Assembly (NCBI GenBank): GCA_018304465.1
Contig: JAGVWC010000010.1
Span: forward strand, 192,001-256,000
Direction: 5' to 3'
Origin: Candidatus Iainarchaeum sp.
Lineage (GTDB): Archaea; Iainarchaeota; Iainarchaeia; Iainarchaeales; JAGVWC01
DNA: 64,000 bases
Shown: positions 26,782 through 62,056 of the stretch, in pieces
How positions within the stretch are numbered: position 1 is the first letter of the stretch
Layout of the letters: every line of letters begins with the position of its first letter
Translations under genes and position numbers: made by a program
Notes under the pieces: generated by a model
What the model saw: only the letters and a program-made list of their open reading frames with translations
What the model was told of the DNA's origin: nothing
Database searches by the model: none

Positions 26782-26908
26782 GGACCCGTAGCGAAGAGGA
26801 TATCGCAGCGCTCTCCTACAGCTTTTTGTCTTGGGACAAAAACCTGGGAAAAAAAATCCCGGAATTGGAGTCAGGCGCAGGTCGTGGGTTCAAATCCCAC
26901 CGGGTCCG
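26782..26908 (+). tRNA. tRNA-Arg(CCT) with 54-nt intron (26819-26872)
   Basis: GGACCCG/CGGGTCC acceptor; GCGCT-CTCCTA|A-GGCGC; CTCC/GGAG central BHB helix. Confidence 0.9.
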
Positions 26909-43014: not shown

Positions 43015-43086
43015 GCAACCTTCACTTCCACATAAAAATACGAAGAAAACATATTTATTTAGAAACTGCACTTTAAATACGTTTGG

Positions 43087-46092: not shown

Positions 46093-46443
46093 ATGGACGA
46101 CGAATATTTCGAAGACGAGCCCCAGCCCAAAAAACGGCAACTGCCCATTCAAACCAACCCCTTGTTTTACCTCGCCATCGGACTCGCCTTGGGATTCACC
46201 TTATCCGTGTTCGTTTCCCCCGAATTCTTGGAAAGCTTTTCAAACCCCCAAAAATTCGACGGACAAATCACGGACATCAACAAATGGGTCTCCGACGACT
46301 TGCGCGTCAACCTCGTGATATTACGCATCAATGACTCGAACGTCGCGACCTGCATCGACGGCGACGCGTGCCTCGGATACCAACCCGGCGACACCGTTCA
46401 CGTCACTTGTTTTGGCATCGAATGCCGCGCGACGAAACGCTAA
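46093..46443 (+). CDS. Small single-pass membrane protein
   Basis: One TM helix followed by a small Cys-containing domain. Confidence 0.65.
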   Translation: MDDEYFEDEPQPKKRQLPIQTNPLFYLAIGLALGFTLSVFVSPEFLESFSNPQKFDGQITDINKWVSDDLRVNLVILRINDSNVATCIDGDACLGYQPGDTVHVTCFGIECRATKR

Positions 46444-46487
46444 ACCCAATCCGAAAACTTAATATGGGCCTGGTTCTAAACCATACT

Positions 46488-47570
46488 ATGCCGCGACGCA
46501 TTTCTCCCCGCGTTCAACGACTATTCCAACAATACGCGGCCGCCCGACACCAAAGCGGAGGACGCAAAATCGGAATTGGTCAATTTCAACTCATTGTAAC
46601 GGCACCCAAAAACGAATCCCTTAGAGCCATCGGAAAACGCGCGCACACCACGCGCGCCACCGCGCGAAACGTACTGGTTACCACCCGTCTGCGAAACAAA
46701 GACCGGATCCAAGGCATCGGAATCGCCGCCAACACGCGTCTACGAAGCGTGGAAACCATGGCCAACGGCACCGTCCTGCAATTCATCCAAGACCAACTGG
46801 CCCACACGGACAAAACCATGCGCCAAATCGCGATCAAAGCCGGCGTCAATCCGTCCACCGTCAAAAAAATAAACAAAAAAGAAAAAATCCGAAAAAACCC
46901 CCGAAGCGTCGGAGGAAAAATAGCCGCGAAACAACGCTTGGAACCCAAATGGGACGCCATCCGCGCTTTGCTCCAACAAAAAACACCCGAAGGAAACTTC
47001 CGATTCACCCAAAACGAAGTCATTTCCCGGTTAGCCCGACAAGGAATCCGAACAAATCACGTGGTCGTCGGAAGAATCGCCCGCCACGTTCGAAGCGAAC
47101 AAGAACGAAATGAAATGCGCGGACACGCGGTTTCTCCATCCAACCGCCGGAGGGCATTCCTCGAAAAAGCCCTGCGATTCACCCGTTCTCCCATCGCACG
47201 CATCACGCAACGTGCCATTACCCGCGAAACCCGACAAGGCCGTCCCGCCACCCAAACCGCCATCCGAAACGCGATCGTGAACGTAAAACGGGAACGCGGA
47301 TTAAAAGGAATGCGATTCCAAGAAAGCAAAACCGCCACCCAAAAAGTGGTTCGGTACCTCATGCCCACTGGAACCCCCCGATTACCCATTCCCTGGGAAG
47401 AAACCGCCAAAAAACTCGAAGTTCCGATTTATTTCCTGCAAAAAACAATCGTCAACCAACTGCTTTTACGAAAACCCCTGCACGACATCGTTCTCGCAGA
47501 ACGAACGGGACTACGCCGCGAAAAAATCCGTCAAATCCGCCTCGAACTCGCCAACGAAAACAACCGATAA
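46488..47570 (+). CDS. Very basic multi-HTH hypothetical protein
   Basis: TMRQIAIKAGVNPSTV; LAERTGLRREKIRQI. BRE/TATA (CGAAAACTTAATA) about 25 nt upstream. Confidence 0.65.
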   Translation: MPRRISPRVQRLFQQYAAARHQSGGRKIGIGQFQLIVTAPKNESLRAIGKRAHTTRATARNVLVTTRLRNKDRIQGIGIAANTRLRSVETMANGTVLQFIQDQLAHTDKTMRQIAIKAGVNPSTVKKINKKEKIRKNPRSVGGKIAAKQRLEPKWDAIRALLQQKTPEGNFRFTQNEVISRLARQGIRTNHVVVGRIARHVRSEQERNEMRGHAVSPSNRRRAFLEKALRFTRSPIARITQRAITRETRQGRPATQTAIRNAIVNVKRERGLKGMRFQESKTATQKVVRYLMPTGTPRLPIPWEETAKKLEVPIYFLQKTIVNQLLLRKPLHDIVLAERTGLRREKIRQIRLELANENNR

Positions 47571-48622: not shown

Positions 48623-49912
48623 ATGTCAGAATCAAAGAACATTTGGAACGGATATGGCTTGCGCGGAAATCCGTTCAATCCAGATCCCCTGCAAGTGTAC
48701 GGCGGAGCGCTCCCGATCGAAGAATCATTCATTGGACGCGAAGAAGAGTTTAAACAGATCACCAAGCACATTCATTCAAACAATACCTCGCGAATCCTCA
48801 TTTACGGAAACATAGGCATTGGGAAAACCACCTTCGCCAATTACGTTCGCTTCGAATCACAAAACGATTATTTCACCCCGCTTGGCGAACTCGGAGTCCA
48901 GTACGATTGGACACCCCAAGACTTCATGTTCAATACTGTACAATATGTCTACTCAACCATCGAACGGAACGAAAGCATCAGGGAAAAATTCAACCCAGAT
49001 ATCCTTCAAGAGCTAAAAGTCCTGTTTGGATCCGAGCGCGGAATTCAAACTGGGATCGGAGCAAACGCATTTGGATTCGGAATCACATCCACCAAAGGAA
49101 AACAATTTGCCCCACAACCCACCAACCCACATGCACTCAAACTGCTTTTCCAAGAAGTATTGGATGAAATCCAACATATAGGATACAAAGGAACCATTAT
49201 TCACTATAATAACCTAGAACTCATCCAAGACAAAGGCGAGAATCAACTCATCAGCATCATGAATGGCATACGCGACTTCTTGCAAGTCGAAGGCGCTCAC
49301 TTCCTGTTCGTGAGTGAAACCAGTTTCTTCGAACTTTTTCACCAGATACCGCGGATAGAAGGAATCTTCAAAACTCCCATCCTGTTGACGGCATTCACAC
49401 CCCAAGAGATTAAAAAGATACTTGAAAAACGTGTCAGTCTTCTTCGGATAAGCTCCGACATTACCCCCATTAACCCCGTAGACGACGAAACGCTCGAGAT
49501 TTTGTACGACTTATATGAAGGAAATCTCCGAGGAATACTTCGAAGCCTCGACTGCGCAATCAACAACATCGAAAGCGCTACCCCCACACAAATCAACCCG
49601 ATGATTCTCAAATACACGCTTTATCATTTCTCAAACAATCGTTTCGTAACCAACCTAAATGCCACTGAAAAAAAAGTATTGAACAAAATACTCGAAAAAA
49701 AAGAAACTACCAACAAAAACCTCTGTGAGGCCTTTGGGATGCTCCCTCAAAATGTCGCGCCCATATTGACGAACCTTCGCGATATTGGTGCCATCCGTCT
49801 CGCACGGACCGAAGCCCAAAAACGGTTCTATTCCCCAAGTCAAGAAGCCCTCTGGCTCAAACTTAATCCCACACTGAACACGCCACTCAATCCATTTTTC
49901 AAAAAGAAGTAG
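48623..49912 (+). CDS. P-loop/AAA-type ATPase with C-terminal winged helix
   Basis: GLRGNPF, FIGREEE, GNIGIGKTT, GNLRGIL, C-terminal wHTH. Confidence 0.85.
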   Translation: MSESKNIWNGYGLRGNPFNPDPLQVYGGALPIEESFIGREEEFKQITKHIHSNNTSRILIYGNIGIGKTTFANYVRFESQNDYFTPLGELGVQYDWTPQDFMFNTVQYVYSTIERNESIREKFNPDILQELKVLFGSERGIQTGIGANAFGFGITSTKGKQFAPQPTNPHALKLLFQEVLDEIQHIGYKGTIIHYNNLELIQDKGENQLISIMNGIRDFLQVEGAHFLFVSETSFFELFHQIPRIEGIFKTPILLTAFTPQEIKKILEKRVSLLRISSDITPINPVDDETLEILYDLYEGNLRGILRSLDCAINNIESATPTQINPMILKYTLYHFSNNRFVTNLNATEKKVLNKILEKKETTNKNLCEAFGMLPQNVAPILTNLRDIGAIRLARTEAQKRFYSPSQEALWLKLNPTLNTPLNPFFKKK

Positions 49913-50673: not shown

Positions 50674-52512
50674 ATGAAAAATGCGCTCGAATGGACTCTG
50701 ATCATCGGACTAATCGCAGTAAGCGGAACCATTCTGTTATTTCCATCCGCTAATTCCGAAGCAACGATTTCACCCACCCTGTTTCAACTGAACACTACCA
50801 CCGATCAAAACACCCTAACCACACTGGACACTTTCGGCACCAATATACGATTTGACATGTTGGTGACCGACCAATTTTTTTCGCCACTGTCCGGAGTACT
50901 CATTGGAATCATTCCCAGCTACAACCCCACCAAAATCGGATCCGTAATATCTACTCCCCAAGGAAACGCATCCTACACCGACACCCATGTTCCGCCCGGA
51001 GTTCACAAATACCGTTTGATTGGATCCAAAGTCGGATATCAGAACGGCTACATGGAAAAAAACATAGTGATTCCATCAGGACATCTAGTGAATGTAGAAG
51101 TTTTTGATTCAGCGGGGAATCCAGTTCCGGATGCTTTTTTAGTGGTGAATGGAGAAGAAAAAAAGCGAACCAATCCAAATGGAAAAGTTAACTTGAATTT
51201 TTTTTCGGGAACGTATGTGTTGCAAGCAAAAACAAATAACGGATATATCTGTGAATCCAAAACAATCACAATTACAACCCCACAATCCGTCCGGTTCTCT
51301 TGTCCGGTGGGAAACCTGGTTGTTCGAGTGTTTTCCCCCGATTACGCTCCAATCGCAAATGCATATATTCAACTTGATCAACAACCATCCCAACTCACCA
51401 ATGCCAGCGGAGCCCATTTTTTTAAAAACCAAGCATTTGGAAACCACCTCGTCACTATTTTTTTAAAAATCAAAGAAACTCCCGAAACCCAACCCAAAGA
51501 ATTTTTTACCCAAACAACAGTAAACCTTTCAGAGGATCTTGTGCTAAAAGAATTCCAACTCGCCCCCAATTCAATTCAAGTTTTGGATACTTCAACCGAA
51601 ATGTTGGTTCTATCCGTTGATTCGAATCAATCAAAAAGACTACCCAACGACATCTCCACTGAAAATGCAATAGTCATCAAAGGAAAAATGAACATCAACC
51701 AATCCCAAGAAACCCCCATAACAGATCCTCTGCACTCCGACACCTGCTACAAAAAGTATCTATTAACCGGAGAATGGCCCACCACTGAATGCTCCGCTAC
51801 CAACACAATTTGGATCGGAACCGATTCGATAACTCAAACCATCAACACAAACCCCTTCGCCTACACCTGCGGAGACCAAAAATGCAGTCAAAATTTGGGA
51901 GTTATTCTTACACAGTATATTGTTCCTCCACTAAAAGAATTTTTTACTGGTACAGATGGAGGAAGGTATTTTCGCATTTCCTATACTGAAAAAGGAAAGG
52001 GTCAAGATCTTGAAGCCTGTTTAAACAAATTGGGAATAGCGAAAGACGAAATTATTCAGCACATCAACAACAAGATTCTTATCCCCCATACCCCGATAGA
52101 GAAATACAATCAGCATATTGGGCAATATAGAGAGAATGGGTTAGATTGCAGTGTCTTCTATGAATCGGTTGCATTTAAAGAAAGCGGCGGTACAAAAGGT
52201 TGTGAAAAAAGTTGCGAACCGCCAGAAAAGTATATCCGAAATCCCCCAATAAGTTATCCGTCTTTTATTCCAACAGAGCATTTAGACGATTGGGTTGAAA
52301 GAATAATTAGACATAACAACGTCGAAAATGGGTGGCCTACATTAGATAGGTTTAAACCTTTTTCAGACATTGGAATAATTATCGTGGAAGGAGCAGGGGT
52401 AGCTGCGGGAGCACTAATACTATGGGAAGCTACAAAACCTGTTCGATGCTTACTTGCCGCTTTTTTAGCTCCTGAAACAATTGGAGGAAGTGTAGTATTA
52501 TGCGTAAGTTGA
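50674..52512 (+). CDS. Secreted protein with carboxypeptidase-regulatory-like beta domains and a variable C-terminal (toxin-like) region
   Basis: Signal peptide; repeated V.V.D..G.P...A.......T...G units; C-terminal GAGVAAGAL...APETIGGS. Confidence 0.7.
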   Translation: MKNALEWTLIIGLIAVSGTILLFPSANSEATISPTLFQLNTTTDQNTLTTLDTFGTNIRFDMLVTDQFFSPLSGVLIGIIPSYNPTKIGSVISTPQGNASYTDTHVPPGVHKYRLIGSKVGYQNGYMEKNIVIPSGHLVNVEVFDSAGNPVPDAFLVVNGEEKKRTNPNGKVNLNFFSGTYVLQAKTNNGYICESKTITITTPQSVRFSCPVGNLVVRVFSPDYAPIANAYIQLDQQPSQLTNASGAHFFKNQAFGNHLVTIFLKIKETPETQPKEFFTQTTVNLSEDLVLKEFQLAPNSIQVLDTSTEMLVLSVDSNQSKRLPNDISTENAIVIKGKMNINQSQETPITDPLHSDTCYKKYLLTGEWPTTECSATNTIWIGTDSITQTINTNPFAYTCGDQKCSQNLGVILTQYIVPPLKEFFTGTDGGRYFRISYTEKGKGQDLEACLNKLGIAKDEIIQHINNKILIPHTPIEKYNQHIGQYRENGLDCSVFYESVAFKESGGTKGCEKSCEPPEKYIRNPPISYPSFIPTEHLDDWVERIIRHNNVENGWPTLDRFKPFSDIGIIIVEGAGVAAGALILWEATKPVRCLLAAFLAPETIGGSVVLCVS

Positions 52513-52517
52513 CAAAC

Positions 52518-53042
52518 ATGGAAAAAAAGTTCGATGTCAGCTTAGTTCTGGCTAACACTAAAAATGCCAATAACCTAAAACTTCTGTATGAAATATTGTG
52601 TTTCTGTAAAGAAATCGGTGCAGTAACCCTTGAAATAGAGTTTGTGAACCCAGATATCTTTACGGGAAAAGATTTTGTTAATCCAGTTTTTTTCGATCGC
52701 CTAAAGGTGTGCGTTAGCCTGCCAGGAGAACGGGTTCGATACGAAAAACCAAAAAGAAAAGAGGAAATAGGCCATGAAAAATTGCATTATCTTAAAGCTA
52801 ATTTTGACTCTCTTTTTATTGAGTGGTATAAAGAAAATAGCCTAATGACTTTTAACGTATTTAATTTGCAATTATTTGACAAAAACGGATCCGTTGTTGC
52901 AGACTTTACCGACGATCAGCTTAGTATTCACATATATTCTTTGAGTAAACAAGAGTTAGAAAAAGTAAGAAAAATTGCGAAAAAATATTCCGTAGATAGT
53001 ACTACTGACACGGCTAAAACCTTAATAAAAAAATGGCACTAG
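52518..53042 (+). CDS. Hypothetical protein (immunity-like)
   Basis: AT-rich ORF starting 5 nt after the secreted gene. Confidence 0.6.
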   Translation: MEKKFDVSLVLANTKNANNLKLLYEILCFCKEIGAVTLEIEFVNPDIFTGKDFVNPVFFDRLKVCVSLPGERVRYEKPKRKEEIGHEKLHYLKANFDSLFIEWYKENSLMTFNVFNLQLFDKNGSVVADFTDDQLSIHIYSLSKQELEKVRKIAKKYSVDSTTDTAKTLIKKWH

Positions 53043-53069
53043 GGACTTCGCCCATATGACCCTAAGTAA

Positions 53070-53750
53070 GCGTGTGTTCCACCAAACCCGAATGCTCCAA
53101 ATGCGTATCCGTATAATGCATTTCATCGCAATTACCACAAGCATAATAAGGCTGACATTGGGGATCACAAGATGCAAAAAGGGATCGAATACGAATATTT
53201 TGCCGACGAAAATGAAGGCAGCATACGGTTTTTGTTTCAGGGCACAGGCAGACTTGACGCACTTGAAGTCGTGAAACGTATCGTAGGAAAAAAAAGTGCA
53301 GAAATTCCCGCAAACCAATACCTCGGAAAAGAATTCATATATGAAGGACAACGACTGGTGCTGTCGTTTGCAAAAAACGGTGTGAACATAAACATCAAAA
53401 GAGTTGGTGGCCAAGTATTTGGTGAAATGGATGGCCTCCTGCTAAAAGACAATACCGTCGTAATACTAGAATCAAAAACAGGCACCGTGGCCAAAATAGT
53501 GGAAGACTTGAGCACGCAGCTACCAAGAAACATTAATGCCATCAACAACCTTTCTCAAAAAACAACAACAGAAGCGCTTATCGCGATCCCAAAAGGCACA
53601 ACCGAAGAAATAAAAGCGCTTGCAATAAACAATTCCAATCTCAACGCGCTCATCAACCAAGGAAAAATACATTTCATTGAAATAACGCAGACAAGCGATG
53701 AACTGCTTGCAACTGCGAATACGGTAAAAGACCTTATAGGTGGCGGGTAG
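53070..53750 (+). CDS. PD-(D/E)XK nuclease-like cassette (first ATG 53172; frame open from 53070)
   Basis: GEMDGLLLKDNTVVILESKTG...TQL matches the E-x-D...E-x-K pattern. Confidence 0.65.
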   Translation, partial: ACVPPNPNAPNAYPYNAFHRNYHKHNKADIGDHKMQKGIEYEYFADENEGSIRFLFQGTGRLDALEVVKRIVGKKSAEIPANQYLGKEFIYEGQRLVLSFAKNGVNINIKRVGGQVFGEMDGLLLKDNTVVILESKTGTVAKIVEDLSTQLPRNINAINNLSQKTTTEALIAIPKGTTEEIKALAINNSNLNALINQGKIHFIEITQTSDELLATANTVKDLIGGG

Positions 53751-54455
53751 ATGAAGGACGATACGATTAGAGAAGAATACCTAAAACTAAATAAAGACCA
53801 TGAATCGTTAAAAGAGCAAAAAAGGCCCGGAAATGCGCATTTGGGGGGATTTTATGTACGATTAGATCCGAATCGAGGAACCTCTTTATCTGGCTCAGTA
53901 AGCGAGTTCGGTGTTTGCGATTTTAGTTATGAGGAAAGAAAATTTTTTTCAGAAGAAGATCGGCAAAAAAAAGTATCCAAATTAATTGAAACCTTCGGAT
54001 ACGCAATCAGTCTTATTTTTCTGAGTTTTGGAGAGAGTGATATCGTTATTTGGCTACAACTCCCACTTGGCAGAAAAGAAATCCAAGAAATCCTGGATTT
54101 TCTACCTTCGACAGGGACATTCAAAAAATACGAAACCCCAATCATACACACCTTGGCAAATGACGAGCAAGTACAAAAAGCACGCAACGATTTTTATCAA
54201 AAACTTTCTGAATGTGTCGACGGCCAGCAGACCGAACATTGGCGTTTTTCGAAAGACATCGAACAAGAAAAAAAAACCGCGTTTCAAATAACCATAAACG
54301 AAGTAAAAAACATTCAAATAGGCAAAACAACAGGACACAACATTACGCTGGAATTTATGAAAAACTGCTCTACTTTTAAAAAATACATTTTCCCCCTTGA
54401 AGAAAAAAGTTTCAAAAAAACAATTGAAAGGATTCGAAATGCGCAGGTAAAATAA
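53751..54455 (+). CDS. Hypothetical protein (immunity-like)
   Basis: Starts immediately after the nuclease stop codon. Confidence 0.6.
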   Translation: MKDDTIREEYLKLNKDHESLKEQKRPGNAHLGGFYVRLDPNRGTSLSGSVSEFGVCDFSYEERKFFSEEDRQKKVSKLIETFGYAISLIFLSFGESDIVIWLQLPLGRKEIQEILDFLPSTGTFKKYETPIIHTLANDEQVQKARNDFYQKLSECVDGQQTEHWRFSKDIEQEKKTAFQITINEVKNIQIGKTTGHNITLEFMKNCSTFKKYIFPLEEKSFKKTIERIRNAQVK

Positions 54456-54534
54456 CGGGTAAATTCATCAGGATACACAAAATATAAAATTTGAGTATTT
54501 AGAGATAAAAACCGCAACTAGTGGAGGGGGATAC

Positions 54535-54798
54535 ATGAGTTGGATCACAGTATTATTCGGCATCGGGGGAATCGCATTGGTAGGATATGGAGTTTATGTA
54601 CTTTACCGGGTCCCAAAGCAGCTGCGCGAAGGAAAAACGCGTCTTACTGGAAAACTCATTACTATGGGTACCCCAGATATTGAAAAGGAAAAAAATCGGA
54701 CAACTTTTTGGGAAGTTACGCTGTGGAATATTATTCGAGGGATTCTCTCGATTATATTTGGGGCGTTTCTCGTTCTCAGTATGCTTTCAAATCTTTGA
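54535..54798 (+). CDS. Small two-TM membrane protein
   Basis: GGAGGGG SD; two hydrophobic helices. Confidence 0.65.
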   Translation: MSWITVLFGIGGIALVGYGVYVLYRVPKQLREGKTRLTGKLITMGTPDIEKEKNRTTFWEVTLWNIIRGILSIIFGAFLVLSMLSNL

Positions 54799-54833
54799 AA
54801 TAATAGTTAACCTCAAAGTATGAGGGCCTTGGA

Positions 54834-55688
54834 TCACGGAAAAGAATTTGCATGAACTGACTTTGGAAATAAGTTGATTCCTTCGGTTCGCAGTTGTTCC
54901 GCCAAAATAGGATTCCGTGTAATAACCATTTTGATCGAGACGTTTTCCATGTAAAGCGAATAGACTTTTGCCATGTCGAACTGTTCCATTGATTTTGTTT
55001 TTTCAAACAACGCATTTAATCGTTGTTTAAACTCCGTTGGATAAAAAATTTGAGCCACATAATCCCCTTCAATCACCAAATCACCGTCCGCCGGATAAGT
55101 GACCTGATGAATGGATTGCTTGCCCATCTTTTGGGTAAACGTATTCCCAAACTGGTCCAACACCCCAGCACCATGATACAACCCATAATAGGGAACTTGA
55201 AAAATTTTTTTCACTTGCTCCAAATCGCTTGGATCCAAACCCACCGGAAGCCAAGGATGACCCAACAGGCAAACACGAGATTTTTTATCCGGATTAGGAA
55301 ATTGATCATTAAAGACCCAAATAACAAAACGAATTAACTCAACCATACTATGGAATTCCAAATTCAGCACCTCTTTTTGCAACCAATCGGAAGGCAAAGA
55401 ATAATTGGAATAGGATTGTAGACGCGCACTAAACGCCTTTACATTTAATATCCACTCAGCACTTAACGAAAATTTCGACCCGTTTTTGACAACGACCCGC
55501 TCACCCTCCAAACTATGAAGCATTTTATGAACCGCTTGGTAGGAAGCTGAAATGGCATATTCTTTTTTGATATCCGAAAATATTTCCTTCAAACTCAAAG
55601 GATGCCGAACGCTAAGTAAACTAATAATCGCGTCTTTTGTTGAAAGTGTTTTTTTCCCAAAACCTGGCAGAACAATCGAAAGAGCCAT
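54834..55688 (-). CDS. wHTH regulator, paralog 1
   Basis: STKDAIISLL...PLSLKEI...SYQAVHKML..L....VV......LSAEW. Confidence 0.75.
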   Translation of the reverse strand: MALSIVLPGFGKKTLSTKDAIISLLSVRHPLSLKEIFSDIKKEYAISASYQAVHKMLHSLEGERVVVKNGSKFSLSAEWILNVKAFSARLQSYSNYSLPSDWLQKEVLNLEFHSMVELIRFVIWVFNDQFPNPDKKSRVCLLGHPWLPVGLDPSDLEQVKKIFQVPYYGLYHGAGVLDQFGNTFTQKMGKQSIHQVTYPADGDLVIEGDYVAQIFYPTEFKQRLNALFEKTKSMEQFDMAKVYSLYMENVSIKMVITRNPILAEQLRTEGINLFPKSVHANSFP

Positions 55689-55782
55689 CCAAATCACTAC
55701 GTATAGAACATACAAAACATCGATAACCGGATTTATAAACATAACCAAGTAAAAAGTAGATAAAACTCAGATTCTGATTTAC

Positions 55783-56790
55783 GTGGCCAAAAAAACCGTA
55801 AAAGATGCCTATGAAAGCATCTTCAAAAAAAGCGTCAAAGCCAGCGGAATATCCGTCAAAGGACTTGATTTTAACCAAGAAGTCACCTTGGAAAAACTGA
55901 TTAACGCGCTTGGAACCAGCGGATTCCAAGCCACGCATTTAAGCCGCGCCATCGAAATCGTCAAAAAAATGCGCAAAGACAAAGTAACGATTTTCTTAGG
56001 ATATACCTCCAACCAAGTATCCAGCGGAAACCGCGACATCATCCGCTATCTGGTTCAACACAAACTCGTGGACTGCTTGGTCAGCACCGCCGGCGGAATC
56101 GAAGAAGACTTCATCAAAACCCACGCTCCGTTTTTCATTTCCGATTTTCGACTCGACGGCGCGAAACTACGCGAAAAAGGAATCAACCGCATCGGAAACC
56201 TGCTCGCACCCAACGAGCGCTACATCTGGTTCGAAAAATTCTTCCAACCGATCCTCCAAGAACTGCTTGACGAACAACTCAACACCGGACACATTTTTTC
56301 CCCCAGCGAAATCATCGACAAAATGGGAGAAAAAATCAACCACGAAGAATCAATTTATTACTGGGCCCACCAAAACAAAATCCCGGTTTTCTCTCCAGCA
56401 TTCATGGACGGAGCCATCGGCGACAACTGCTACTTTTTCAACTACAACAAACAAAAAAAATTATTCATCGACCAAATCGCAGACCATCACCGCCTGATCG
56501 AAAAAACACTCGACTCCAAAGAAACCGGACTCATCATACTAGGCGCCGGCCTCGTCAAACACACCCTGCTAAACGCCAACATGTACCGCGAAGGCGCCAA
56601 ATACACCGTCTACATGAACACCTCCAGCGAATACGACGGAAGCGACAGCGGCGCCGAACCCGAAGAAGCCAAAAGCTGGGGCAAAATCGCAGCAGACGCC
56701 AACACGGTAAAAGTAGTTGGGGACACGACAGTGTTGTTTCCCTTAGTGGTAACAGTTGCATTAAGGCACTTTCAAAAAGCAAAAAAATAG
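55783..56790 (+). CDS. dys: Deoxyhypusine synthase
   Basis: GFQATHL, FLGYTSN, TAGGIEED, INRIGN, YDGSDSGA.PEEA.SWGK. Confidence 0.95.
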   Translation: MAKKTVKDAYESIFKKSVKASGISVKGLDFNQEVTLEKLINALGTSGFQATHLSRAIEIVKKMRKDKVTIFLGYTSNQVSSGNRDIIRYLVQHKLVDCLVSTAGGIEEDFIKTHAPFFISDFRLDGAKLREKGINRIGNLLAPNERYIWFEKFFQPILQELLDEQLNTGHIFSPSEIIDKMGEKINHEESIYYWAHQNKIPVFSPAFMDGAIGDNCYFFNYNKQKKLFIDQIADHHRLIEKTLDSKETGLIILGAGLVKHTLLNANMYREGAKYTVYMNTSSEYDGSDSGAEPEEAKSWGKIAADANTVKVVGDTTVLFPLVVTVALRHFQKAKK

Positions 56791-56804: not shown

Positions 56805-57497
56805 TCAAAAATCCAGTAAACCACGTATATCAGTTTTATTTTTGACTATTGGCCATTTTCTTTGTTCAGCAATTTCAGAAAGTTTTTTGTCGGGGTTCAC
56901 AGTAACTGGATGTCCCACATGTTCTAAAACAGGAAGATCTTGTGAGGTATCTCCAAACCCAAACGAAGATTCTATGTCAATATTATACTTTTTTATCAAA
57001 GCATAGAACAAAGTTTCTTTATTTTCACGAATTACTAGATTCGTTTTGACATTCCCCGAATAAACACCATCAACAATCTCGCATTCTGTCCCATATAAAT
57101 CATCAAAGCCCAAGTATTTCAATTGTTTTATTACTTCGATAGGGGAACCGCTCATTGCAAGGACCAAATAACCTTTTTGTTTCATTAGTTTTACAAGTTG
57201 TTTTGAGTGTTCAAAAATATTTTTTTTGTATATAGCCATGAATGCTGCCCCCAATTTTTCAACTTTTTGGTGATCGCATCCTTTTAACCCTCTCGCAAAC
57301 ACTTGCGGGAGTTCGGTTGCAACTTCAGCAGCACTTTTTGTTCCTTTAATATATTCTGATAAAAGAAGTTGTATTTTTTTATTGGATTCGGAGCCTATGC
57401 ACCCTTGTTGGTCCAAATACTTTGGAAATTCACAAATGATAAAACCTTTAACAAGTACACCATCAATGTCAAATATTGCTGCTTTTTGCGCATGCAT
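56805..57497 (-). CDS. HAD-IB (PSP-like) phosphatase
   Basis: FDIDGVL, MSGS, K, GFGDTSQD...VGHP..VNPD. Confidence 0.9.
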   Translation of the reverse strand: MHAQKAAIFDIDGVLVKGFIICEFPKYLDQQGCIGSESNKKIQLLLSEYIKGTKSAAEVATELPQVFARGLKGCDHQKVEKLGAAFMAIYKKNIFEHSKQLVKLMKQKGYLVLAMSGSPIEVIKQLKYLGFDDLYGTECEIVDGVYSGNVKTNLVIRENKETLFYALIKKYNIDIESSFGFGDTSQDLPVLEHVGHPVTVNPDKKLSEIAEQRKWPIVKNKTDIRGLLDF

Positions 57498-57522
57498 ACA
57501 AAAGTTCTCCTGTAAAATAATG

Positions 57523-58302
57523 TTAAAATATCTTGCCAGGATATTTATTTGCCAGAGAAACCATTTTTTTCAAGGTTTCAATACCTTTTGGTTCTTCAAT
57601 GAGTTTACCAACATGAATAGCGTCAGCCTTATGTTTAAACATAAGATCAGCATCTTCAGGCGTTAAAATGCCACTAGTTGGAATAATAAATAAATTCGTC
57701 TTTCTTGCCAATAATTCAACATGTGTTGCTGGCGGCCCAAGTTCGCTACCGGATCCACCAGCCATGATATATATTCGCATACCTAAATATTGGGCTGCTA
57801 AAGCGACAGATAAACTAATTTCGGGTTTTTCTCTTGGAATTGGAACGGCGCGTGCCAGCCAGTTAGCTGTTCGCATTGACCCCCGATCATCAAATACATA
57901 CGCAGTAGGAATTGGTTCAAGAGTATTAGGCGTAACAGCAACTGAGTTCATTACCAACACATCACGCAAGAAAAATGGATTTTCTGAGTTCAAAACAGAC
58001 ATCCAATAAATTGCGGTTTTCCCTTCGTGGCCATTTAAAAAACACACTGCACTATTAGTCGGATAGGTTACTGTAGAAAAGTTATAATCCTTTACAGCCA
58101 TATCTTGCACTATTTGTAATTTTTGTGGAGTGATAATGCTTCCGCCAAGCGCAATATGTTGAATACCCAAATCAGAGATCGCTTGAAAAATTTTTGAAAT
58201 TACTTCTACAGGAAGTTTGTCAGGATCTATTTGTGGGATCACTAGCGGGTGATCCTCTCGAAGAGAATAGATTTTTTTTTCTACTTTTCCAAGGCGTTCC
58301 AT
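57523..58302 (-). CDS. Geranylgeranylglyceryl-phosphate synthase (GGGPS/PcrB)-family homologue, active site divergent
   Basis: IDPDK, LGGS, MSVLNSENPF, PIPREKPEI, AAQYLGM, ADAI.VG. The YLEAGSG motif appears as IMAGGSG. Confidence 0.82.
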   Translation of the reverse strand: MERLGKVEKKIYSLREDHPLVIPQIDPDKLPVEVISKIFQAISDLGIQHIALGGSIITPQKLQIVQDMAVKDYNFSTVTYPTNSAVCFLNGHEGKTAIYWMSVLNSENPFFLRDVLVMNSVAVTPNTLEPIPTAYVFDDRGSMRTANWLARAVPIPREKPEISLSVALAAQYLGMRIYIMAGGSGSELGPPATHVELLARKTNLFIIPTSGILTPEDADLMFKHKADAIHVGKLIEEPKGIETLKKMVSLANKYPGKIF

Positions 58303-58305
58303 TGT

Positions 58306-59454
58306 TTACTCAGCCCCTTCAAATAATAGCGCAAGATGACCTTTGGATACATCGACTTTAGGCTTTTTTAAGATAATCTCTTTCCCATACACTCTAGAAC
58401 ATAGACCAGATAAAAATCCGCCGATCATTAAGAAGTCAATTTCTTTATAAAATTTAGTCCAAGGAAAATAATTAATGATAACTTTTAATTTTTCTCCGCT
58501 TGAAAGAACTAAAACTTCGCCCCAGCCCAAAGCCGAAAGTAACTCCATTACTTCAAGCAATCTTCTTTTATCAATTTCAGGAAATAACTCTTGACCTATC
58601 CGAAACGCACAATCAAAAAGGATTTTTTTCATTTTTTCATTTTTCATTCCTTTTTCTAGCAGGTACATCCCGCTGACTTCCATTAAGAAAAAACGCTCCT
58701 TTTGTTTGTATACAATGATGCCTTCAGAATATGAAAACAATTTGGCGTTAAGATATGATTCAAAGGATTTTTTATATTGAATGTCCACTTCAGTATTAAA
58801 ACTTCGATAAGTTGAAGCGTCCTCTAATAGATCATCTACTTGAGTTTCACTATATACTTGTTCTTTGAATTGCTTTGAAAGAACATCGACAGGAGCACAG
58901 GTCACCTTACAAAACTGATCAGACCCTTTGAACAAACTATCATACATATGACCTTCAATTTTTATGTCTTGCAGTATCCACGCGATAATTCCTGCTGCAC
59001 CGGCAGTAGCAAGAAAAAAATCATACCCTAACTTTCTACACACAACAAAATTTTTCAGTTCATATTTCACAGTCTTATTTTTTACATCAGTCTCTTGCGA
59101 GATATTGCTCGCATAGGTGCCTTCGACAAATTTACTCGCAATCATCACCCAATCTTTTACTGCCTCGCCAGGGTGATCTTTAATATTTTCAAACCGCCCA
59201 TTCAATGCAAAGCTATACCCAAACCGTTTGCCGATGGAATATAATGTTTGCTCACCTTCAGCCCCAAACTCAGTAACTAATTGCTTTTCAAGAGCAACAA
59301 AAAAACTTTCAGGGAGCAGAAGTTGTCGCAAGTTTACAGTGGTTTTTCCAGAGATTTTAAAATCTACAAAGCCAGGCCTATCAAAAATCAATGCCCGGGG
59401 GATTACAAAGCGTTTAACGTACAATCTAACAACGCTATCTTTTACATCCACCAT
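58306..59454 (-). CDS. Tandem V4R-like domain protein
   Basis: RQLLLP..FF...LYSIGKRFG; GAAG...G...C; second copy ERFFL..., LSALGWG, GGFLSG. Confidence 0.7.
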   Translation of the reverse strand: MVDVKDSVVRLYVKRFVIPRALIFDRPGFVDFKISGKTTVNLRQLLLPESFFVALEKQLVTEFGAEGEQTLYSIGKRFGYSFALNGRFENIKDHPGEAVKDWVMIASKFVEGTYASNISQETDVKNKTVKYELKNFVVCRKLGYDFFLATAGAAGIIAWILQDIKIEGHMYDSLFKGSDQFCKVTCAPVDVLSKQFKEQVYSETQVDDLLEDASTYRSFNTEVDIQYKKSFESYLNAKLFSYSEGIIVYKQKERFFLMEVSGMYLLEKGMKNEKMKKILFDCAFRIGQELFPEIDKRRLLEVMELLSALGWGEVLVLSSGEKLKVIINYFPWTKFYKEIDFLMIGGFLSGLCSRVYGKEIILKKPKVDVSKGHLALLFEGAE

Positions 59455-59456
59455 GT

Positions 59457-60203
59457 TTATCCGCCTGCTTCGATAACAATGCCTTTTGCAGTAATATTAT
59501 ATGTTCGTGGACCGCCACGAATATCAGTTTTTCGCATTTTTCGAACTTCCAAGTTTCTATTCAAACTATCCCCAATCGAAACATGTTTGAGTAAAACTAC
59601 ACCGTCACATAAAAATTCACTAATTGTGTCCCGGCTCAAAAAATTTGTGGATTCAGGTAACTCAGAAATGATTATTGATGTTGCTTTTTGATTTTTTAGT
59701 GCTTCAAGCATATCCACTATTGCTTTTCGAGTAGCAACTTCAGGCCCAAGCTGGAAAGAGAATTGGCTTTTTTGCATTCCCATTTTTTCTAAGATCTCAA
59801 TATATGCAATCGTTTCTGCATAAATCCCATATGTCGAAATAGAATCCAAGACAATTCTATCCGGTTTAAACTCTTGGATTAATGCCTTAATTTCTTGTAA
59901 TACCGCAGAGAAAATCATTTTGTTTGGAGTGTAAGTTACAACTTTCAATTTTTTTTCTTTTTCAAGTTTAAGCAAATCCCACCCCAATTCGTTTGATTGA
60001 TCAATAATATCTTCTCTAATCTGTTCAAAACTAATCAAAAGCCCACGTTCATTATACTGCTTCACTCCATTTACAAGGTATTGAGTAGCGAAGATGGTCT
60101 TTCCAGATCCTGTTAACCCTGACAGCAATACCAGATTCCCTTTTGGAAATCCCCCATTAATGAGTTCATCAAAACCAGATATCCCTGTTTTAACTCGTAA
60201 CAT
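59457..60203 (-). CDS. KaiC/RAD55-like single-domain ATPase
   Basis: RVKTGISGFDELINGG.P, GLTGSGKT, RIVLDS, EFLCDGVV.L, RKMR.T. Confidence 0.92.
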   Translation of the reverse strand: MLRVKTGISGFDELINGGFPKGNLVLLSGLTGSGKTIFATQYLVNGVKQYNERGLLISFEQIREDIIDQSNELGWDLLKLEKEKKLKVVTYTPNKMIFSAVLQEIKALIQEFKPDRIVLDSISTYGIYAETIAYIEILEKMGMQKSQFSFQLGPEVATRKAIVDMLEALKNQKATSIIISELPESTNFLSRDTISEFLCDGVVLLKHVSIGDSLNRNLEVRKMRKTDIRGGPRTYNITAKGIVIEAGG

Positions 60204-61157: not shown

Positions 61158-62003
61158 TCAGGAATGGGCGTAAAGAGAATTTATCTGGTCAAACGCCATC
61201 TTTGCCATTTGCGGATTTCGATAAACCCGGACTTTAATGGAGACACTAAGTGGCTTTTTAGCTAAAAATCGGGCGTAATGCAAAAAAACATCCAACAAGT
61301 TATTCGTCTTATCATATAGTGATTCTAGCCAGCGTCTGGAGTCCGAAGAAAAATCCACTTCCCAGTAATATGAACCAATTACTCCGAAATCTTTTTCAAA
61401 ATTTCCGGAAGGATTGATCCGCACGGAAAAACCTGCATCAGAATACATTTTTTGCGCCCAACGATTAAAGTTAGTGTCTCGCGTAATCACCACGCAAATC
61501 TGTCCAGGAGTTGCATCAGACATTTTTTTTAACAAAGAAAAATCAGAAAAACGAAACGACAAAGGAAACCACGCATTTCGAATCAACGCCATTGTCTTGT
61601 CGCCTTTTCGAACTGATTTTCCAAGTGTGACGAAAATTTTTGCCATTCCAACGCAAAACTCACTTATATCAGAGAATTCAAGAATCGTATCAGAGCCAAA
61701 AGAGATGGGAACACGCCTTGATTTAGAGCGTCGGAACTCCGAGTCTAACTCGCGTGAAAAATTTTTCAAGCTCAAAACCCACTGGGGATTCAACTCGAAT
61801 TTTTTTTGTTTTGAAACCAGAACATCTTCCGCTTCAAGAGAAACCAACATTTTGTGCACGGCTTGGTACGACACGCGATCTACTAGCGTCCAATCCATTT
61901 TTTCAAAAACGCCTTTTGCAGAAAGCGGGCCCTGCTGGCCAAGAATCAAAATAATTTGATCACGTGTGGAAGACTTTCCTAAAAGAATTGGCAATACCCC
62001 CAT
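61158..62003 (-). CDS. wHTH regulator, paralog 2
   Basis: STRDQII..L...PLSAK...VSYQAVHKML..L...LNPQW. Confidence 0.75.
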   Translation of the reverse strand: MGVLPILLGKSSTRDQIILILGQQGPLSAKGVFEKMDWTLVDRVSYQAVHKMLVSLEAEDVLVSKQKKFELNPQWVLSLKNFSRELDSEFRRSKSRRVPISFGSDTILEFSDISEFCVGMAKIFVTLGKSVRKGDKTMALIRNAWFPLSFRFSDFSLLKKMSDATPGQICVVITRDTNFNRWAQKMYSDAGFSVRINPSGNFEKDFGVIGSYYWEVDFSSDSRRWLESLYDKTNNLLDVFLHYARFLAKKPLSVSIKVRVYRNPQMAKMAFDQINSLYAHS

Positions 62004-62056
62004 AGATAACCCACTACATAACAAGTATTTTAGAACTAACGGATAAAAGAGTACCT

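What the first reader, a model, noticed from the sequence alone, without database searches (positions are those of the whole stretch)
50674..54798. Polymorphic-toxin-like locus in a DPANN-type archaeon
Seen: a secreted beta-domain stalk whose composition switches from C/A-rich host-like to AT-rich near 51890 (after YTCGDQKC). It ends in a hydrophobic GAGVAAGAL...APETIGGS region. Next come a tightly linked unknown ORF, a PD-(D/E)XK cassette, another abutting unknown ORF and a small membrane ORF. Known: stalk-CT/immunity followed by orphan-CT/immunity is the architecture of Rhs/CDI-type systems. Inference: a contact-dependent competition or host-attack system with exchangeable tips.
Basis: partly seen in the sequence, partly recalled or inferred. 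Interest (0 to 1): 0.75.

Follow-up and report, generated by a model that had tools for sequence, protein, structure and literature searches.

The report
Mosaic DPANN surface-protein locus, not polymorphic toxin
The locus encodes a rare, membrane-anchored surface protein of a tiny symbiotic-type archaeon, joined to a small partner gene and followed by three orphan genes; its tail end really does have a different DNA make-up, but the few known relatives all carry the same tail, so it does not look like a toxin system with swappable tips.

Summary
The ORFs and the composition switch are real. Within the 612-aa ORF (50674-52512), + strand GC skew flips from -0.25 to +0.14 at about 51868-51890. 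Third-position C falls from 0.47 to 0.10.

The polymorphic-toxin reading fails its main test. An exhaustive search seeded with the C-terminal part found two full-length relatives (Micrarchaeota and Iainarchaeum MAGs) and one 81-aa fragment. Both are collinear with the protein from residue ~55 to the end, straight through the proposed junction. Identity is 44/42% before it and 49.5/43% after; their N-termini are what vary. No toxin domain was detected.

The next ORF (52500-53042) is a conserved, translationally coupled partner in all three genomes. ORFs 3-5 have no detectable relatives. The PD-(D/E)XK call rests on a motif and sub-threshold hits only.

Some toxin-system-like traits remain. One relative carries an array of partner-gene paralogues with mini-ORFs. 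The conserved 3' module plus partner is AT-richer than its surroundings in two genomes.

Best reading: a laterally exchanged surface-protein module anchored by its C-terminus. A stalk-seeded exhaustive search could not be run.

The parts
50674..52512 (+). P1: 612-aa secreted, Cys-rich surface protein. It has an N-terminal signal-like segment, beta-sandwich domain(s), a conserved Cys-rich C-terminal module and a C-terminal hydrophobic hairpin.
   Evidence: ORF and translation. Hydropathy and 12 Cys. PF13620 at residues 140-207. Relatives P0002 and P0003 are collinear over residues ~55-612. The exact protein was seen on 9 contigs.
50674..50757 (+). Signal-peptide-like N-terminus of P1 (residues 1-28).
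   Evidence: Kyte-Doolittle maximum of 2.02 over residues 3-28. Relatives have classical signal-like N-termini. No dedicated signal-peptide predictor was run.
51091..51294 (+). CarboxypepD_reg (beta-sandwich) domain of P1, residues 140-207.
   Evidence: Pfam PF13620, E 3.4e-8, 34.2 bits against a cutoff of 32.3. The same family matches both relatives.
51868..51890 (.). Intragenic composition junction, lying after the codons for the ...CGDQKC motif (residues 399-404).
   Evidence: Change point at 51868. GC skew goes from -0.25 to +0.14. C3 falls from 0.47 to 0.10 and chi-square p = 3e-5. Protein homology to the relatives continues across it.
51889..52359 (+). Conserved extracellular C-terminal domain of P1 (residues 406-562); fold unknown.
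   Evidence: 51% and 43% identity to the relatives, with 50 invariant columns including 4 Cys and 2 His. Pfam matched 0 of 3 members. PDB profile search gave 0 hits. The AF2 model had pLDDT 43.9 and the fold search gave 0 matches at E<=0.001.
52360..52509 (+). C-terminal hydrophobic hairpin of P1 (residues 563-612), with a conserved W-E-A-T-K-P-x-R-C loop and a P-x-T-x-G-G-S...C tail. The GGS codons double as the Shine-Dalgarno-like site for P2.
   Evidence: Hydropathy. Conservation in 4 of 4 sequences. GGAGGAAGT lies 11 nt before the P2 ATG, and the same arrangement occurs in L001.
52500..53042 (+). P2: 180-aa K/E-rich protein without hydrophobic segments. It is a conserved, translationally coupled partner of P1.
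   Evidence: 13-nt overlap with P1. Homologues lie downstream of both P1 relatives (E 3e-19 and 3.5e-10). Family alignment. Only 4 clusters in 5.8 billion proteins, and every one that carries a name is 'hypothetical'.
53172..53750 (+). P3: 192-aa cytoplasmic ORFan, possibly a PD-(D/E)XK-fold nuclease.
   Evidence: D...ExK motif. PADLOC CARF_PDDEXK/Csx1 at E 0.002-0.012. Atlas score 0.85 with a Tox-REase-7 cluster as third hit. No relative other than itself. Nothing in Pfam. Nothing in PDB. Nothing in phages or plasmids.
53751..54455 (+). P4: 234-aa ORFan abutting P3; presumed partner of P3.
   Evidence: Its ATG follows P3's TAG directly. No significant match in Pfam, NCBIfam, PADLOC or PHROGs, in PDB or in the Atlas. 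No search for relatives in the large protein collections was run on P4. Its own cluster holds 2 near-identical members.
54535..54798 (+). P5: 87-aa protein with two hydrophobic segments. By inspection it has its own AT-rich upstream box and a GGAGG-like site.
   Evidence: Hydropathy. Sequence. Only sub-threshold family hits. Its cluster has 1 member.
51868..55004 (.). Compositional island: no C-over-G excess on the + strand and low GC3.
   Evidence: Change-point fit and ranking of 2.9-kb windows. Profiles. Per-ORF third positions. No flanking repeats beyond chance-level short matches.

Best explanation
P1 and P2 form a rare two-gene module restricted, as far as detected, to DPANN-type archaea (Micrarchaeota and Iainarchaeota relatives).

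Architecture of P1. P1 is exported by a signal peptide. It displays beta-sandwich domains and a disulfide-rich conserved domain outside the cell. It is held in its own membrane by a conserved C-terminal hydrophobic hairpin. The membrane-distal N-terminal part is the variable end. The architecture therefore resembles a C-terminally anchored surface, adhesin or S-layer-stalk-type protein, not a toxin with a variable tip.

P2. P2 is a small cytoplasmic protein translated by coupling to the end of P1. The last P1 codons carry its ribosome-binding site and start. Its role is inferred only: a dedicated partner, for example in assembly, retention or signalling through the short cytoplasmic loop of the hairpin.

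Origin of the 3' block. The 3' third of P1 together with P2 has a different third-position make-up from the 5' part. Most likely it was brought in by recombination with a homologous copy from an AT-richer relative, with the crossover inside the conserved gene at about 51868-51890.

P3-P5. P3-P4 (a possible PD-(D/E)XK nuclease plus an abutting partner) and P5 (a small two-segment membrane protein) are lineage-specific cargo in the same island. P3-P4 most resemble a cytoplasmic two-gene toxin-antitoxin or defence-type cassette, and are not tips of P1.

Shown versus inferred.
- Shown: ORFs, the composition junction, collinear relatives, the conserved P1-P2 pairing and coupling geometry, and the ORFan status of P3-P5.
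- Inferred: membrane topology, surface or adhesion role, the role of P2, the direction of transfer, and nuclease activity of P3.
For: Relatives and the junction:
- An exhaustive HMMER search with P1 residues 391-612 found 6 proteins at E<=0.001: the query itself, two full-length relatives, one 81-aa fragment and two repeat-motif hits.
- The alignment is collinear over P1 residues ~55-612.
- Identity before and after the junction is 44.2/49.5% (P0002) and 41.8/42.8% (P0003).
- The relatives carry about 500 extra, mutually dissimilar N-terminal residues.

Surface-protein features:
- All ten Cys of residues 350-612 are conserved, and both hydrophobic C-terminal segments are conserved.
- PF13620 matches above its cutoff. 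A weak SlaB-like match covers the beta-sandwich region (E 1.6e-6, far below the cutoff).
- In both relatives P1-P2 is followed by an RDD-family membrane protein and a large S8 subtilase, that is, envelope genes.

P1-P2 pairing:
- P2 homologues lie directly downstream in both relatives.
- The overlap geometry and GGAGGAAGT-type site are shared.

Composition:
- Third-position chi-square p = 3e-5 for the N part versus the C-terminal part; p = 0.73 for the C-terminal part versus P2.
- L002 shows the same contrast: GC3 is 0.59 in its N part, 0.36-0.38 in the conserved module, 0.42 in its P2 and 0.53-0.55 in the S8 gene (p = 4e-11).
- L001 is uniformly AT-rich (GC3 0.18-0.28).

Not an assembly artefact:
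- The exact P1 sequence is recorded on 9 contigs. Two more full-length variants differ by 1-3 residues, and none has another C-terminus.

P3:
- P3 has no hydrophobic segment and no P1-like stretch in front of it.
Against: - No fold or function could be assigned to the conserved C-terminal domain, so a toxic activity is not excluded.
- A surface anchor needs no cytoplasmic partner, so P2 is unexplained by this reading.
- P2 relatives give sub-threshold Pfam hits to immunity families: PoNi_N at E 0.048 and 0.2 in two near-identical paralogues, and Imm44 at E 0.061 in L002.
- L001 carries an array of three P2 paralogues plus mini-ORFs with the P1 tail. An 81-aa C-terminal-only ORF also exists elsewhere. 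Both resemble toxin-immunity arrays.
- Lateral movement of '3' module plus partner' is more typical of conflict systems than of structural envelope genes.
- Topology rests on a simple hydropathy scale only.
- Low GC3 is not proof of foreign origin here, because housekeeping-type genes at 56805-60203 share it.
- Only three genomes carry the family, so 'conserved C-terminus, variable N-terminus' rests on n = 3 and on a search seeded with the C-terminus.
Confidence: 0.5

Rival explanations
1. The P1 C-terminal module plus P2 is a true toxin-immunity (or self/non-self recognition) cassette of a DPANN-specific polymorphic-toxin-like system. The 3' module and its cognate P2 move together by recombination within the conserved gene. 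Old cassettes are pushed downstream and decay, leaving the L001 array. The hydrophobic, glycine-rich hairpin acts on or crosses a target membrane.
For: - P1 and P2 are tightly coupled and P2 is conserved downstream in 3 of 3 genomes.
- L001 has three P2 paralogues, and two 37-aa mini-ORFs keep the P1-type tail.
- The tail type and the P2 type co-vary. The window's tail and P2 are closest to the L001 mini-ORF tail and to P2b, not to the L001 main gene's tail and P2a.
- An 81-aa C-terminal-only ORF is recorded on 2+2 contigs.
- The composition break lies exactly after a conserved Cys motif, and L002 shows a parallel break.
- There are sub-threshold hits to the PoNi_N and Imm44 immunity families.
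Against: - Both full-length relatives (2 of 2) carry the same C-terminal domain, and homology runs through the junction.
- There is no known toxin, pre-toxin, Rhs/YD, haemagglutinin-repeat, LXG or DUF4157-type domain.
- Ten conserved Cys and a terminal hydrophobic hairpin suit a stable, retained extracellular domain.
- The L001 remnants keep only ~17 residues of the tail, not a reserve of whole tips.
- The immunity-family hits are at chance level (E 0.05-0.2), and two of them come from near-identical paralogues.
Confidence: 0.22
2. P3-P4 (with or without P5) is an orphan toxin-immunity cassette of the P1 system. It would be ready to replace the P1 tip by recombination.
For: - It lies directly downstream of P1-P2 in the same orientation and within the same compositional island.
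- P3 has a D...ExK motif and weak PD-(D/E)XK leads, including a Tox-REase-7 cluster at Atlas score 0.85.
- P4 abuts P3.
Against: - No stretch before or within P3 resembles P1, so there is no homology handle for tip replacement.
- P3 lacks a signal peptide or TM segment.
- By inspection P3 has its own AT-rich box about 25 nt before the ATG.
- The third-position make-up of P3 and P4 (A3 0.41) differs from that of the P1 tail and P2 (T3 0.33-0.35, C3 0.14-0.18).
- Neither relative locus has P3, P4 or P5 homologues.
- P3 has no relative at all among 5.8 billion clusters.
Confidence: 0.08
3. The conserved tail (hydrophobic stretch plus P-x-T-x-G-G-S...C) is a C-terminal sorting or processing signal. 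P1-family proteins and the L001 mini-ORF peptides would be substrates of a dedicated envelope machinery, for example the neighbouring RDD protein and/or S8 subtilase in the relatives. P2 would serve that pathway.
For: - The tail is conserved in 4 of 4 family sequences and in both mini-ORFs, which are otherwise only a signal peptide.
- The mini-ORFs keep equal length, signal-like N-termini and ATGA coupling despite 24 differences in 114 nt.
- RDD and S8 genes follow in both relatives.
- A comparable idea, an undescribed C-terminal motif next to a hydrophobic region as a sortase-type signal, was raised for VARTIG proteins (PMC8416519, section 11 read).
Against: - No known CTERM or sortase-type signal model matched P1 (NCBIfam).
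- No RDD or S8 homologue is present in the 64-kb window.
- Part of the tail's conservation is explained by its second job as the ribosome-binding site and start region for P2.
- No enzyme candidate was identified.
Confidence: 0.12
4. The junction is an assembly chimera or a chance fluctuation of composition, with no biological meaning.
For: The window is compositionally patchy overall. P1 has another low-C3 patch at codons 121-200.
Against: - The identical 612-aa protein is recorded on 9 contigs from several sources, with the longest at 307,472 bases. Two further full-length variants differ by 1-3 residues.
- The frame stays open for 207 codons past the junction and encodes a domain conserved in other genomes.
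- Chi-square p = 3e-5.
Confidence: 0.03

Closest known systems
Polymorphic toxin systems of the Rhs/CDI type (defining features recalled from the literature; archaeal cases mentioned in PMC6393860, passages read)
   Same: A large exported protein is followed by a tightly coupled small gene. In one relative (L001) there is a downstream array of partner-gene paralogues with remnants of the upstream gene's 3' end. There is compositional evidence that the 3' part plus partner was exchanged.
   Different: The C-terminal domain is the conserved part and the N-terminus is the variable part. Homology runs through the supposed junction. There is no toxin, pre-toxin, repeat or trafficking domain of these systems. 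The protein ends in a hydrophobic hairpin. The downstream 'orphan' (P3) has no homology handle and no export signal.
VARTIG modules of Thermococcales (PMC8416519; abstract and sections 11 and 13 read)
   Same: An archaeal locus led by a large signal-peptide-bearing protein with Ig-like/beta-sandwich domains. It has a hydrophobic C-terminal region with a short conserved terminal motif, lineage-specific downstream genes, recombination within the 3' region, and no known toxin.
   Different: In VARTIG the C-terminal Ig domain is hypervariable; here the C-terminal module is conserved. VARTIG has a different terminal motif (DNNxxxGG) and belongs to arCOG07710 of Thermococcales. No sequence relationship was detected here. 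That paper reports finding no VARTIG-like module outside Thermococcales.
SlaB-type membrane-anchored S-layer stalk proteins (NCBIfam NF040788; the idea of a second, TM-bearing S-layer protein in Micrarchaeota is raised in bioRxiv 10.1101/2021.04.28.441871, passages read)
   Same: A signal peptide, beta-sandwich domain(s) and C-terminal membrane anchorage. There is a weak local match to the SlaB model over residues 109-212 (E 1.6e-6).
   Different: The score is 27.3 bits against a family cutoff of 700, so it is not a SlaB. There are two hydrophobic segments instead of one helix. A Cys-rich conserved domain and a coupled cytoplasmic partner gene are present and are not part of the SlaA/SlaB scheme (recalled).
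Two-gene cytoplasmic nuclease cassettes (toxin-antitoxin or defence type) with a PD-(D/E)XK nuclease; Tox-REase-7 (PF15649) as the nearest named lead
   Same: P3 has a D-x12-E-x-K motif and weak matches to the nuclease ends of the CARF_PDDEXK/Csx1 models. An Atlas neighbour cluster carries Tox-REase-7 (score 0.85). An abutting partner ORF is present.
   Different: No family threshold is reached (Pfam 0 hits). There are no relatives, no usable model, no CARF domain, and no link to a delivery protein.

Membership tests
Polymorphic toxin system (Rhs/CDI-type) | Homology among family members stops at a junction motif, after which the C-termini are unrelated | tested here: not met
   Both full-length relatives (2 of 2) align through the junction. 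Identity is 44.2/41.8% for residues 210-405 and 49.5/42.8% for residues 406-612. Near-identical population variants (2 full-length) also keep the same end.
Polymorphic toxin system (Rhs/CDI-type) | Members with the same stalk but different C-terminal toxin domains exist | tested here: inconclusive
   The exhaustive search was seeded with the C-terminus, so it could only find this tip. The word-based whole-protein search found only the query and also missed P0003. No second exhaustive search or genome scan was available.
Polymorphic toxin system (Rhs/CDI-type) | The C-terminal domain belongs to a recognised toxin family | tested here: not met
   Pfam matched 0 of 3 members at E<=1. NCBIfam, PADLOC and PHROGs gave nothing for that region. 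The PDB profile search gave 0 hits. The fold search gave 0 matches at E<=0.001, on a low-confidence model.
Polymorphic toxin system (Rhs/CDI-type) | Dedicated trafficking or repeat region (TPS/FHA repeats, RHS/YD, PAAR, LXG, or DUF4157 in archaea) | tested here: not met
   Only CarboxypepD_reg/Ig-like domains were found in P1 and both relatives. There is a Sec-type signal-like N-terminus only.
Polymorphic toxin system (Rhs/CDI-type) | A cognate immunity gene lies immediately downstream | tested here: inconclusive
   A coupled downstream gene is conserved in 3 of 3 genomes. Its function is unknown. PoNi_N and Imm44 hits come only at E 0.048-0.2.
Polymorphic toxin system (Rhs/CDI-type) | Downstream orphan tip/immunity cassettes share a homologous stretch with the main gene | tested here: not met
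   In the window, nothing before or in P3-P5 resembles P1. In relative L001, only ~17-residue tail remnants fused to a signal peptide precede P2-type genes. No whole tips are present.
PD-(D/E)XK nuclease superfamily (P3) | Catalytic D...(D/E)xK motif | tested here: met
   The motif ...MDGLL-x-...ILESK... is read directly from the translation. This is motif-level evidence only.
PD-(D/E)XK nuclease superfamily (P3) | Significant profile match to a family of the superfamily | tested here: inconclusive
   Pfam gave 0 families at E<=1. PADLOC CARF_PDDEXK/Csx1 models matched at E 0.0019-0.012 (4 of the 6 listed hits). A PHROG Cas4-domain family matched at E 0.43. The Atlas score was 0.85, below the 0.9 mark.
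PD-(D/E)XK nuclease superfamily (P3) | Restriction-endonuclease-like alpha/beta fold | tested here: inconclusive
   The single-sequence AlphaFold2 model has mean pLDDT 38.4. It was not used for a fold search because matches would be meaningless.
SlaB S-layer stalk protein (NF040788) | Full-length match above the curated cutoff | tested here: not met
   27.3 bits against a cutoff of 700, a local match to residues 109-212 only.
Archaeal C-terminal sorting signals (PGF-CTERM and similar, as modelled in NCBIfam) | Match to a CTERM signal model at the C-terminus | tested here: not met
   No such model matched at E<=1. The only sorting-type hit is Por_Secre_tail over residues 130-191, below its cutoff.
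VARTIG (Thermococcales arCOG07710 module) | Hypervariable C-terminal Ig domain and a DNNxxxGG terminal motif | tested here: not met
   The C-terminal module is conserved. The terminal motif is P-x-T-x-G-G-S...C, not DNNxxxGG (the motif definition is from PMC8416519, section 11).

The most novel reading that the evidence does not exclude
The conserved C-terminal module of P1 plus P2 is a new, DPANN-specific conflict or recognition cassette: a membrane-acting or membrane-crossing effector with its cytoplasmic immunity or recognition partner. It spreads laterally by recombining into resident surface-protein genes at the CxDxKC motif. The chain of coupled P2 paralogues and tail-bearing mini-ORFs in the Micrarchaeota relative would be the record of successive cassette displacements. 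This would be a polymorphic-toxin-like system of an undescribed family in episymbiotic archaea.
Probability: 0.2. Interest if true: 0.75.

Novelty: new variant of a known kind. Interest (0 to 1): 0.38.

Why it matters
DPANN archaea live attached to other cells. Their surface proteins are the likely tools of that contact and are known to diversify (PMC6142677, abstract and passages read).

This locus defines a very rare surface-protein and partner-gene module: 3 full-length members (the window's own included) and one fragment among 1.8 billion representative proteins. It has a conserved membrane-proximal end and a variable distal end. There is clear sequence evidence that the 3' module with its partner gene is exchanged between lineages.

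If the module is an adhesin anchor, it gives a handle on how these cells build host-contact structures. If it is a toxin-immunity pair, it would be a new archaeal conflict system.

Tried and rejected
- Whole-protein word-based search with P1 found only the query. It is not informative, because it missed P0003, a relative within its length range.
- AlphaFold2 on P1 residues 345-612 with a 4-row alignment gave pLDDT 43.9. The Foldseek PDB search on it gave 0 matches at E<=0.001, and the top rows were unrelated proteins with TM 0.1-0.2. No fold was assigned.
- AlphaFold2 on P3 alone gave pLDDT 38.4. It was not taken to a fold search.
- Complex prediction of the P1 C-terminal domain (A4) with P2 (A5) gave no verdict (score 0.01, mark 0.32, controls not run). 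This is neither for nor against binding.
- PDB sequence or profile searches with P1, P3, P4, A4 and A5 gave nothing meaningful. A5 gave only a designed protein at E 0.045.
- tblastn of P3 against the phage and plasmid collections gave no match at E<=1.
- A search for flanking direct or inverted repeats around the island found only short, chance-level pairs.
- The bacterial-type promoter and terminator scan gave counts equal to the shuffles, and it is not suited to archaea.
- A local similarity of P3 to the ORF at 23616-24992 (27% over 75 residues) does not align the motif and was dropped.
- Simple inversion of native DNA as the cause of the skew change was rejected. AT skew stays positive, and GC3 is lower than in native minus-strand genes.
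- Literature search: the search for 'polymorphic toxin' with at least one other of Micrarchaeota, Iainarchaeota or Diapherotrites (min 2 of 4 terms) counted 143 papers. All 10 listed had 0 occurrences of 'polymorphic toxin'. The search 'polymorphic toxin' + archaea + DPANN found 5 papers, and none of the titles or abstract openings listed describes this family.
- One search failed on a coordinate slip for a small upstream ORF and was not repeated.

Full report
**What is there**

- P1: 50674-52512, 612 aa.
- P2: 52500-53042, 180 aa. It overlaps the end of P1 by 13 nt.
- P3: 53172-53750, 192 aa.
- P4: 53751-54455, 234 aa. Its ATG directly follows P3's TAG.
- P5: 54535-54798, 87 aa.

P1 features:
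- An N-terminal hydrophobic, signal-like segment at residues 3-28.
- A CarboxypepD_reg beta-sandwich domain just above the Pfam cutoff (residues 140-207, 34.2 against 32.3 bits).
- 12 Cys and two C-terminal hydrophobic segments, 563-587 and 592-612.

P2, P3 and P4 have no strongly hydrophobic segment. P5 has two.

**The composition switch is real**

- GC skew of the + strand is -0.253 over 50674-51889 and +0.142 over 51890-52512.
- A two-change-point fit over 48-58 kb gives boundaries at 51868 and about 55004.
- The windows starting at 51801-52201 are the five most G-over-C of all 2.9-kb windows in the 64 kb.
- At third codon positions, C falls from 0.47 (codons 361-400) to 0.10 (codons 401-440). 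The chi-square test for the N part versus the C-terminal part gives p = 3e-5. The C-terminal part and P2 are indistinguishable (p = 0.73).

Most of the window has C>G at third positions on the + strand for genes in both orientations, with GC3 of 0.5-0.6. The switch is therefore a departure from a strand-wide bias.

Two caveats apply.
- P1 has another low-C3 patch at codons 121-200.
- The genes at 56805-60203 (HAD hydrolase, PcrB family, KaiC-like) share the low-GC3, weak-skew make-up. 'AT-rich' is therefore not automatically 'foreign'.

The junction is not an assembly artefact. The identical 612-aa protein is recorded on 9 contigs, the longest 307,472 bases. Two other full-length variants differ by only 1-3 residues.

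**Relatives**

A word-based search with the whole of P1 found only the query.

An exhaustive HMMER search of 1.84 billion representatives with residues 391-612 found 6 proteins at E<=0.001:
- the query itself;
- P0002 (1085 aa);
- P0003 (1008 aa);
- an 81-aa C-terminal-only ORF, P0004;
- two repeat-motif hits that I regard as irrelevant.

The genome scan placed P0002 on a Micrarchaeota MAG contig (L001) and P0003 on an Iainarchaeum MAG contig (L002). Iainarchaeum belongs to the DPANN kingdom Nanobdellati.

The alignment shows both relatives collinear with P1 from about residue 55 to the end, including the YTCGDQKC site.
- Identity for residues 210-405 is 44.2% and 41.8%.
- Identity for residues 406-612 is 49.5% and 42.8%.
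- All ten Cys of residues 350-612 and both hydrophobic segments are conserved.
- What differs is the N-terminus. The relatives have about 500 extra residues there, Cys-rich in P0002 and dissimilar between the two.

This is the opposite polarity to Rhs/CDI proteins.

The limit of this test must be stated. The exhaustive search was seeded with the C-terminus and cannot find stalks with other tips. No second exhaustive search or genome scan was available.

**The partner gene**

P2 homologues lie downstream of both relatives.
- In L002, one 159-aa gene starts 12 nt after the stop (E 3.5e-10).
- In L001, there are three paralogues (P2a, P2b and P2c). The best is the N-terminal 180 residues of a 397-aa protein (E 3e-19).

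The family is tiny. A profile search found four clusters, and every one that carries a name is annotated 'hypothetical'.

In the window and in L001, the last codons of the upstream gene (G-G-S-V-x-L-C) contain a GGAGGAAGT site and the ATG of the P2-type gene. The pair is therefore translationally coupled, and part of the tail's conservation serves that purpose.

Both relatives continue with an RDD-family membrane protein and a large S8 subtilase. Neither has a homologue in the window.

**An unexpected array in L001**

Two 37-aa mini-ORFs (L001 5651-5764 and 7433-7546) consist of a signal-like N-terminus fused to the last ~17 residues of a P1-type protein.
- Each starts in an ATGA overlap with the preceding P2-type gene.
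- Each overlaps the start of the next ORF.
- They differ at 24 of 114 nt but keep the same length.
- A near-identical patch of about 125 nt spans their 3' ends and the first 54 nt of the following ORFs. After that the sequences diverge.

The window's tail and P2 are closer to this mini-ORF tail and to P2b than to the L001 main gene's tail and P2a.

This resembles the displaced cassettes of toxin-immunity arrays. However, the remnants are not whole tips, and they could equally be small tail-bearing peptides in their own right.

**Composition in the relatives**

L001 is uniformly AT-rich (GC3 0.18-0.28). In L002 the values are:
- non-homologous N part: GC3 0.59;
- conserved module: 0.36-0.38;
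- its P2: 0.42;
- the S8 gene: 0.53-0.55 (N part versus conserved module, p = 4e-11).

So in two genomes the conserved module plus partner is AT-richer than its surroundings. This fits lateral spread of that block from AT-rich donors and its grafting onto resident genes by recombination.

**What the C-terminal module does is unknown**

- Pfam matched 0 of 3 members.
- The PDB profile search gave 0 hits.
- The model of residues 345-612 is poor (pLDDT 43.9), and its fold search gave nothing at E<=0.001.
- The only architectural hint is a weak local SlaB-like match in the beta-sandwich region, far below the family cutoff.

**P3, P4 and P5**

P3:
- It has a D-x12-E-x-K motif.
- It gives weak matches to the nuclease ends of the CARF_PDDEXK/Csx1 models, E 0.0019-0.012.
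- Its Atlas neighbours score 0.85 and include a Tox-REase-7 cluster; this is below the 0.9 mark.
- Pfam gives nothing, and it has no relative among 5.8 billion clusters.
- Its model is unusable.

P4 has no lead at all.

None of P3-P5 occurs in L001 or L002. Nothing in front of P3 resembles P1. P3 has no export signal. The third-position make-up of P3 and P4 also differs from that of the P1 tail and P2.

I read P3-P4 as an independent cytoplasmic two-gene cassette of toxin-antitoxin or defence type, and P5 as a separate small membrane protein.

**Verdict**

- There is a conserved, coupled, apparently exchangeable '3' module plus partner'.
- There are no variable tips, no toxin domain and no orphan tip.

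The best-supported reading (confidence 0.5) is a DPANN-specific surface protein that is anchored by its C-terminus and has a dedicated cytoplasmic partner. It sits in a recombination mosaic, with unrelated ORFan cargo downstream.

A true toxin-immunity or recognition cassette of a new family remains possible (about 0.2).

The closest published analogue in organisation is the VARTIG module of Thermococcales (PMC8416519). This locus differs from it in having a conserved, not a hypervariable, C-terminal part.

Noticed in passing
window 3000-63000 (whole window): The + strand is C-rich and A-rich almost throughout (GC skew about -0.1 to -0.3 per kb). Third codon positions show C>G on the + strand for genes in both orientations. 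This is a strand-wide mutational asymmetry, not a coding-strand effect.
   Followed up: partly
window 56805-60203: A block of four minus-strand genes (HAD hydrolase, PcrB family, an unassigned 382-aa ORF, KaiC-like) has GC3 of 0.26-0.32 and weak skew, like the island. The deoxyhypusine synthase gene next to it (55783-56790) has GC3 0.59 and skew -0.66. The window is a compositional mosaic.
   Followed up: partly
window 51034-51273 (P1 codons 121-200): This is a second low-C3, higher-T3/G3 patch inside P1, covering the CarboxypepD_reg domain (C3 0.05-0.15). P1 therefore has more than one compositional switch.
   Followed up: no
L001 5651-5764 and 7433-7546: Two 37-aa mini-ORFs consist of a signal-like N-terminus plus the last ~17 residues of a P1-type protein. 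They are chained by ATGA and longer overlaps between P2-type genes. A near-identical patch of about 125 nt spans their 3' ends and the starts of the next ORFs.
   Followed up: partly
L002 337-3854: The Iainarchaeum relative shows its own compositional break. GC3 is 0.59 in the non-homologous N part against 0.36-0.38 in the conserved module and 0.42 in its P2 gene. Downstream genes are at 0.47-0.55.
   Followed up: partly
L001 8124-11842; L002 3857-10020: Both relatives carry an RDD-family membrane protein and a large S8 subtilase right after the P1-P2 genes. The window has neither.
   Followed up: partly
window 53088-53107 and 42819-42838: A 20-nt sequence in the P2-P3 spacer recurs with 2 mismatches inside the beta-CASP/metallo-beta-lactamase gene at 41737-43179. 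None of 100 shuffles gave 2 matches. Its meaning is unknown.
   Followed up: no
window 53043-53171, minus strand: The P2-P3 spacer has host-like composition (GC 0.457, skew -0.15). On the minus strand it reads a Cys-rich stretch (C-x3-C...C-x2-C) at the end of an 83-aa ORF, 53062-53313, which overlaps the start of P3. It could be a gene remnant or chance.
   Followed up: no
window 4731-4860, 26782-26908, 34234-34395: Three tRNA matches of 127-162 nt were found by Rfam but not by ARAGORN. They are presumably intron-bearing archaeal tRNA genes.
   Followed up: no
window 54834-55748 (minus strand) and 61158-62024 (minus strand); L002 1-249: The 304-aa ORF flanking the island has an N-terminal hydrophobic segment and, by eye, a winged-helix-like stretch. 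It resembles a partial ORF just upstream of the P1 relative in L002 (31% over 64 residues) and a paralogue at 61158-62024. Pfam gives nothing.
   Followed up: no
window 48623-49912 and 46368-47570: Upstream of P1 lie a P-loop ATPase with a C-terminal winged-helix region and an HTH-rich 400-aa protein. The ATPase gives sub-threshold AAA_16, ATPase_2, Orc1/Cdc6-like and defence-ATPase hits. The HTH-rich protein gives weak IS21 and TnsD HTH hits. The neighbourhood looks like a variable, dark-matter region.
   Followed up: no
protein P0006 (not in the window): A 1626-aa repeat protein of unknown origin carries five copies of a motif like Y-Y-R-N-P-P-x-D-Y-P-S. This resembles the conserved K-Y-I-R-N-P-P-x-x-Y-P of the P1 C-terminal domain (E 5e-5). 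It is probably a short-motif coincidence.
   Followed up: no
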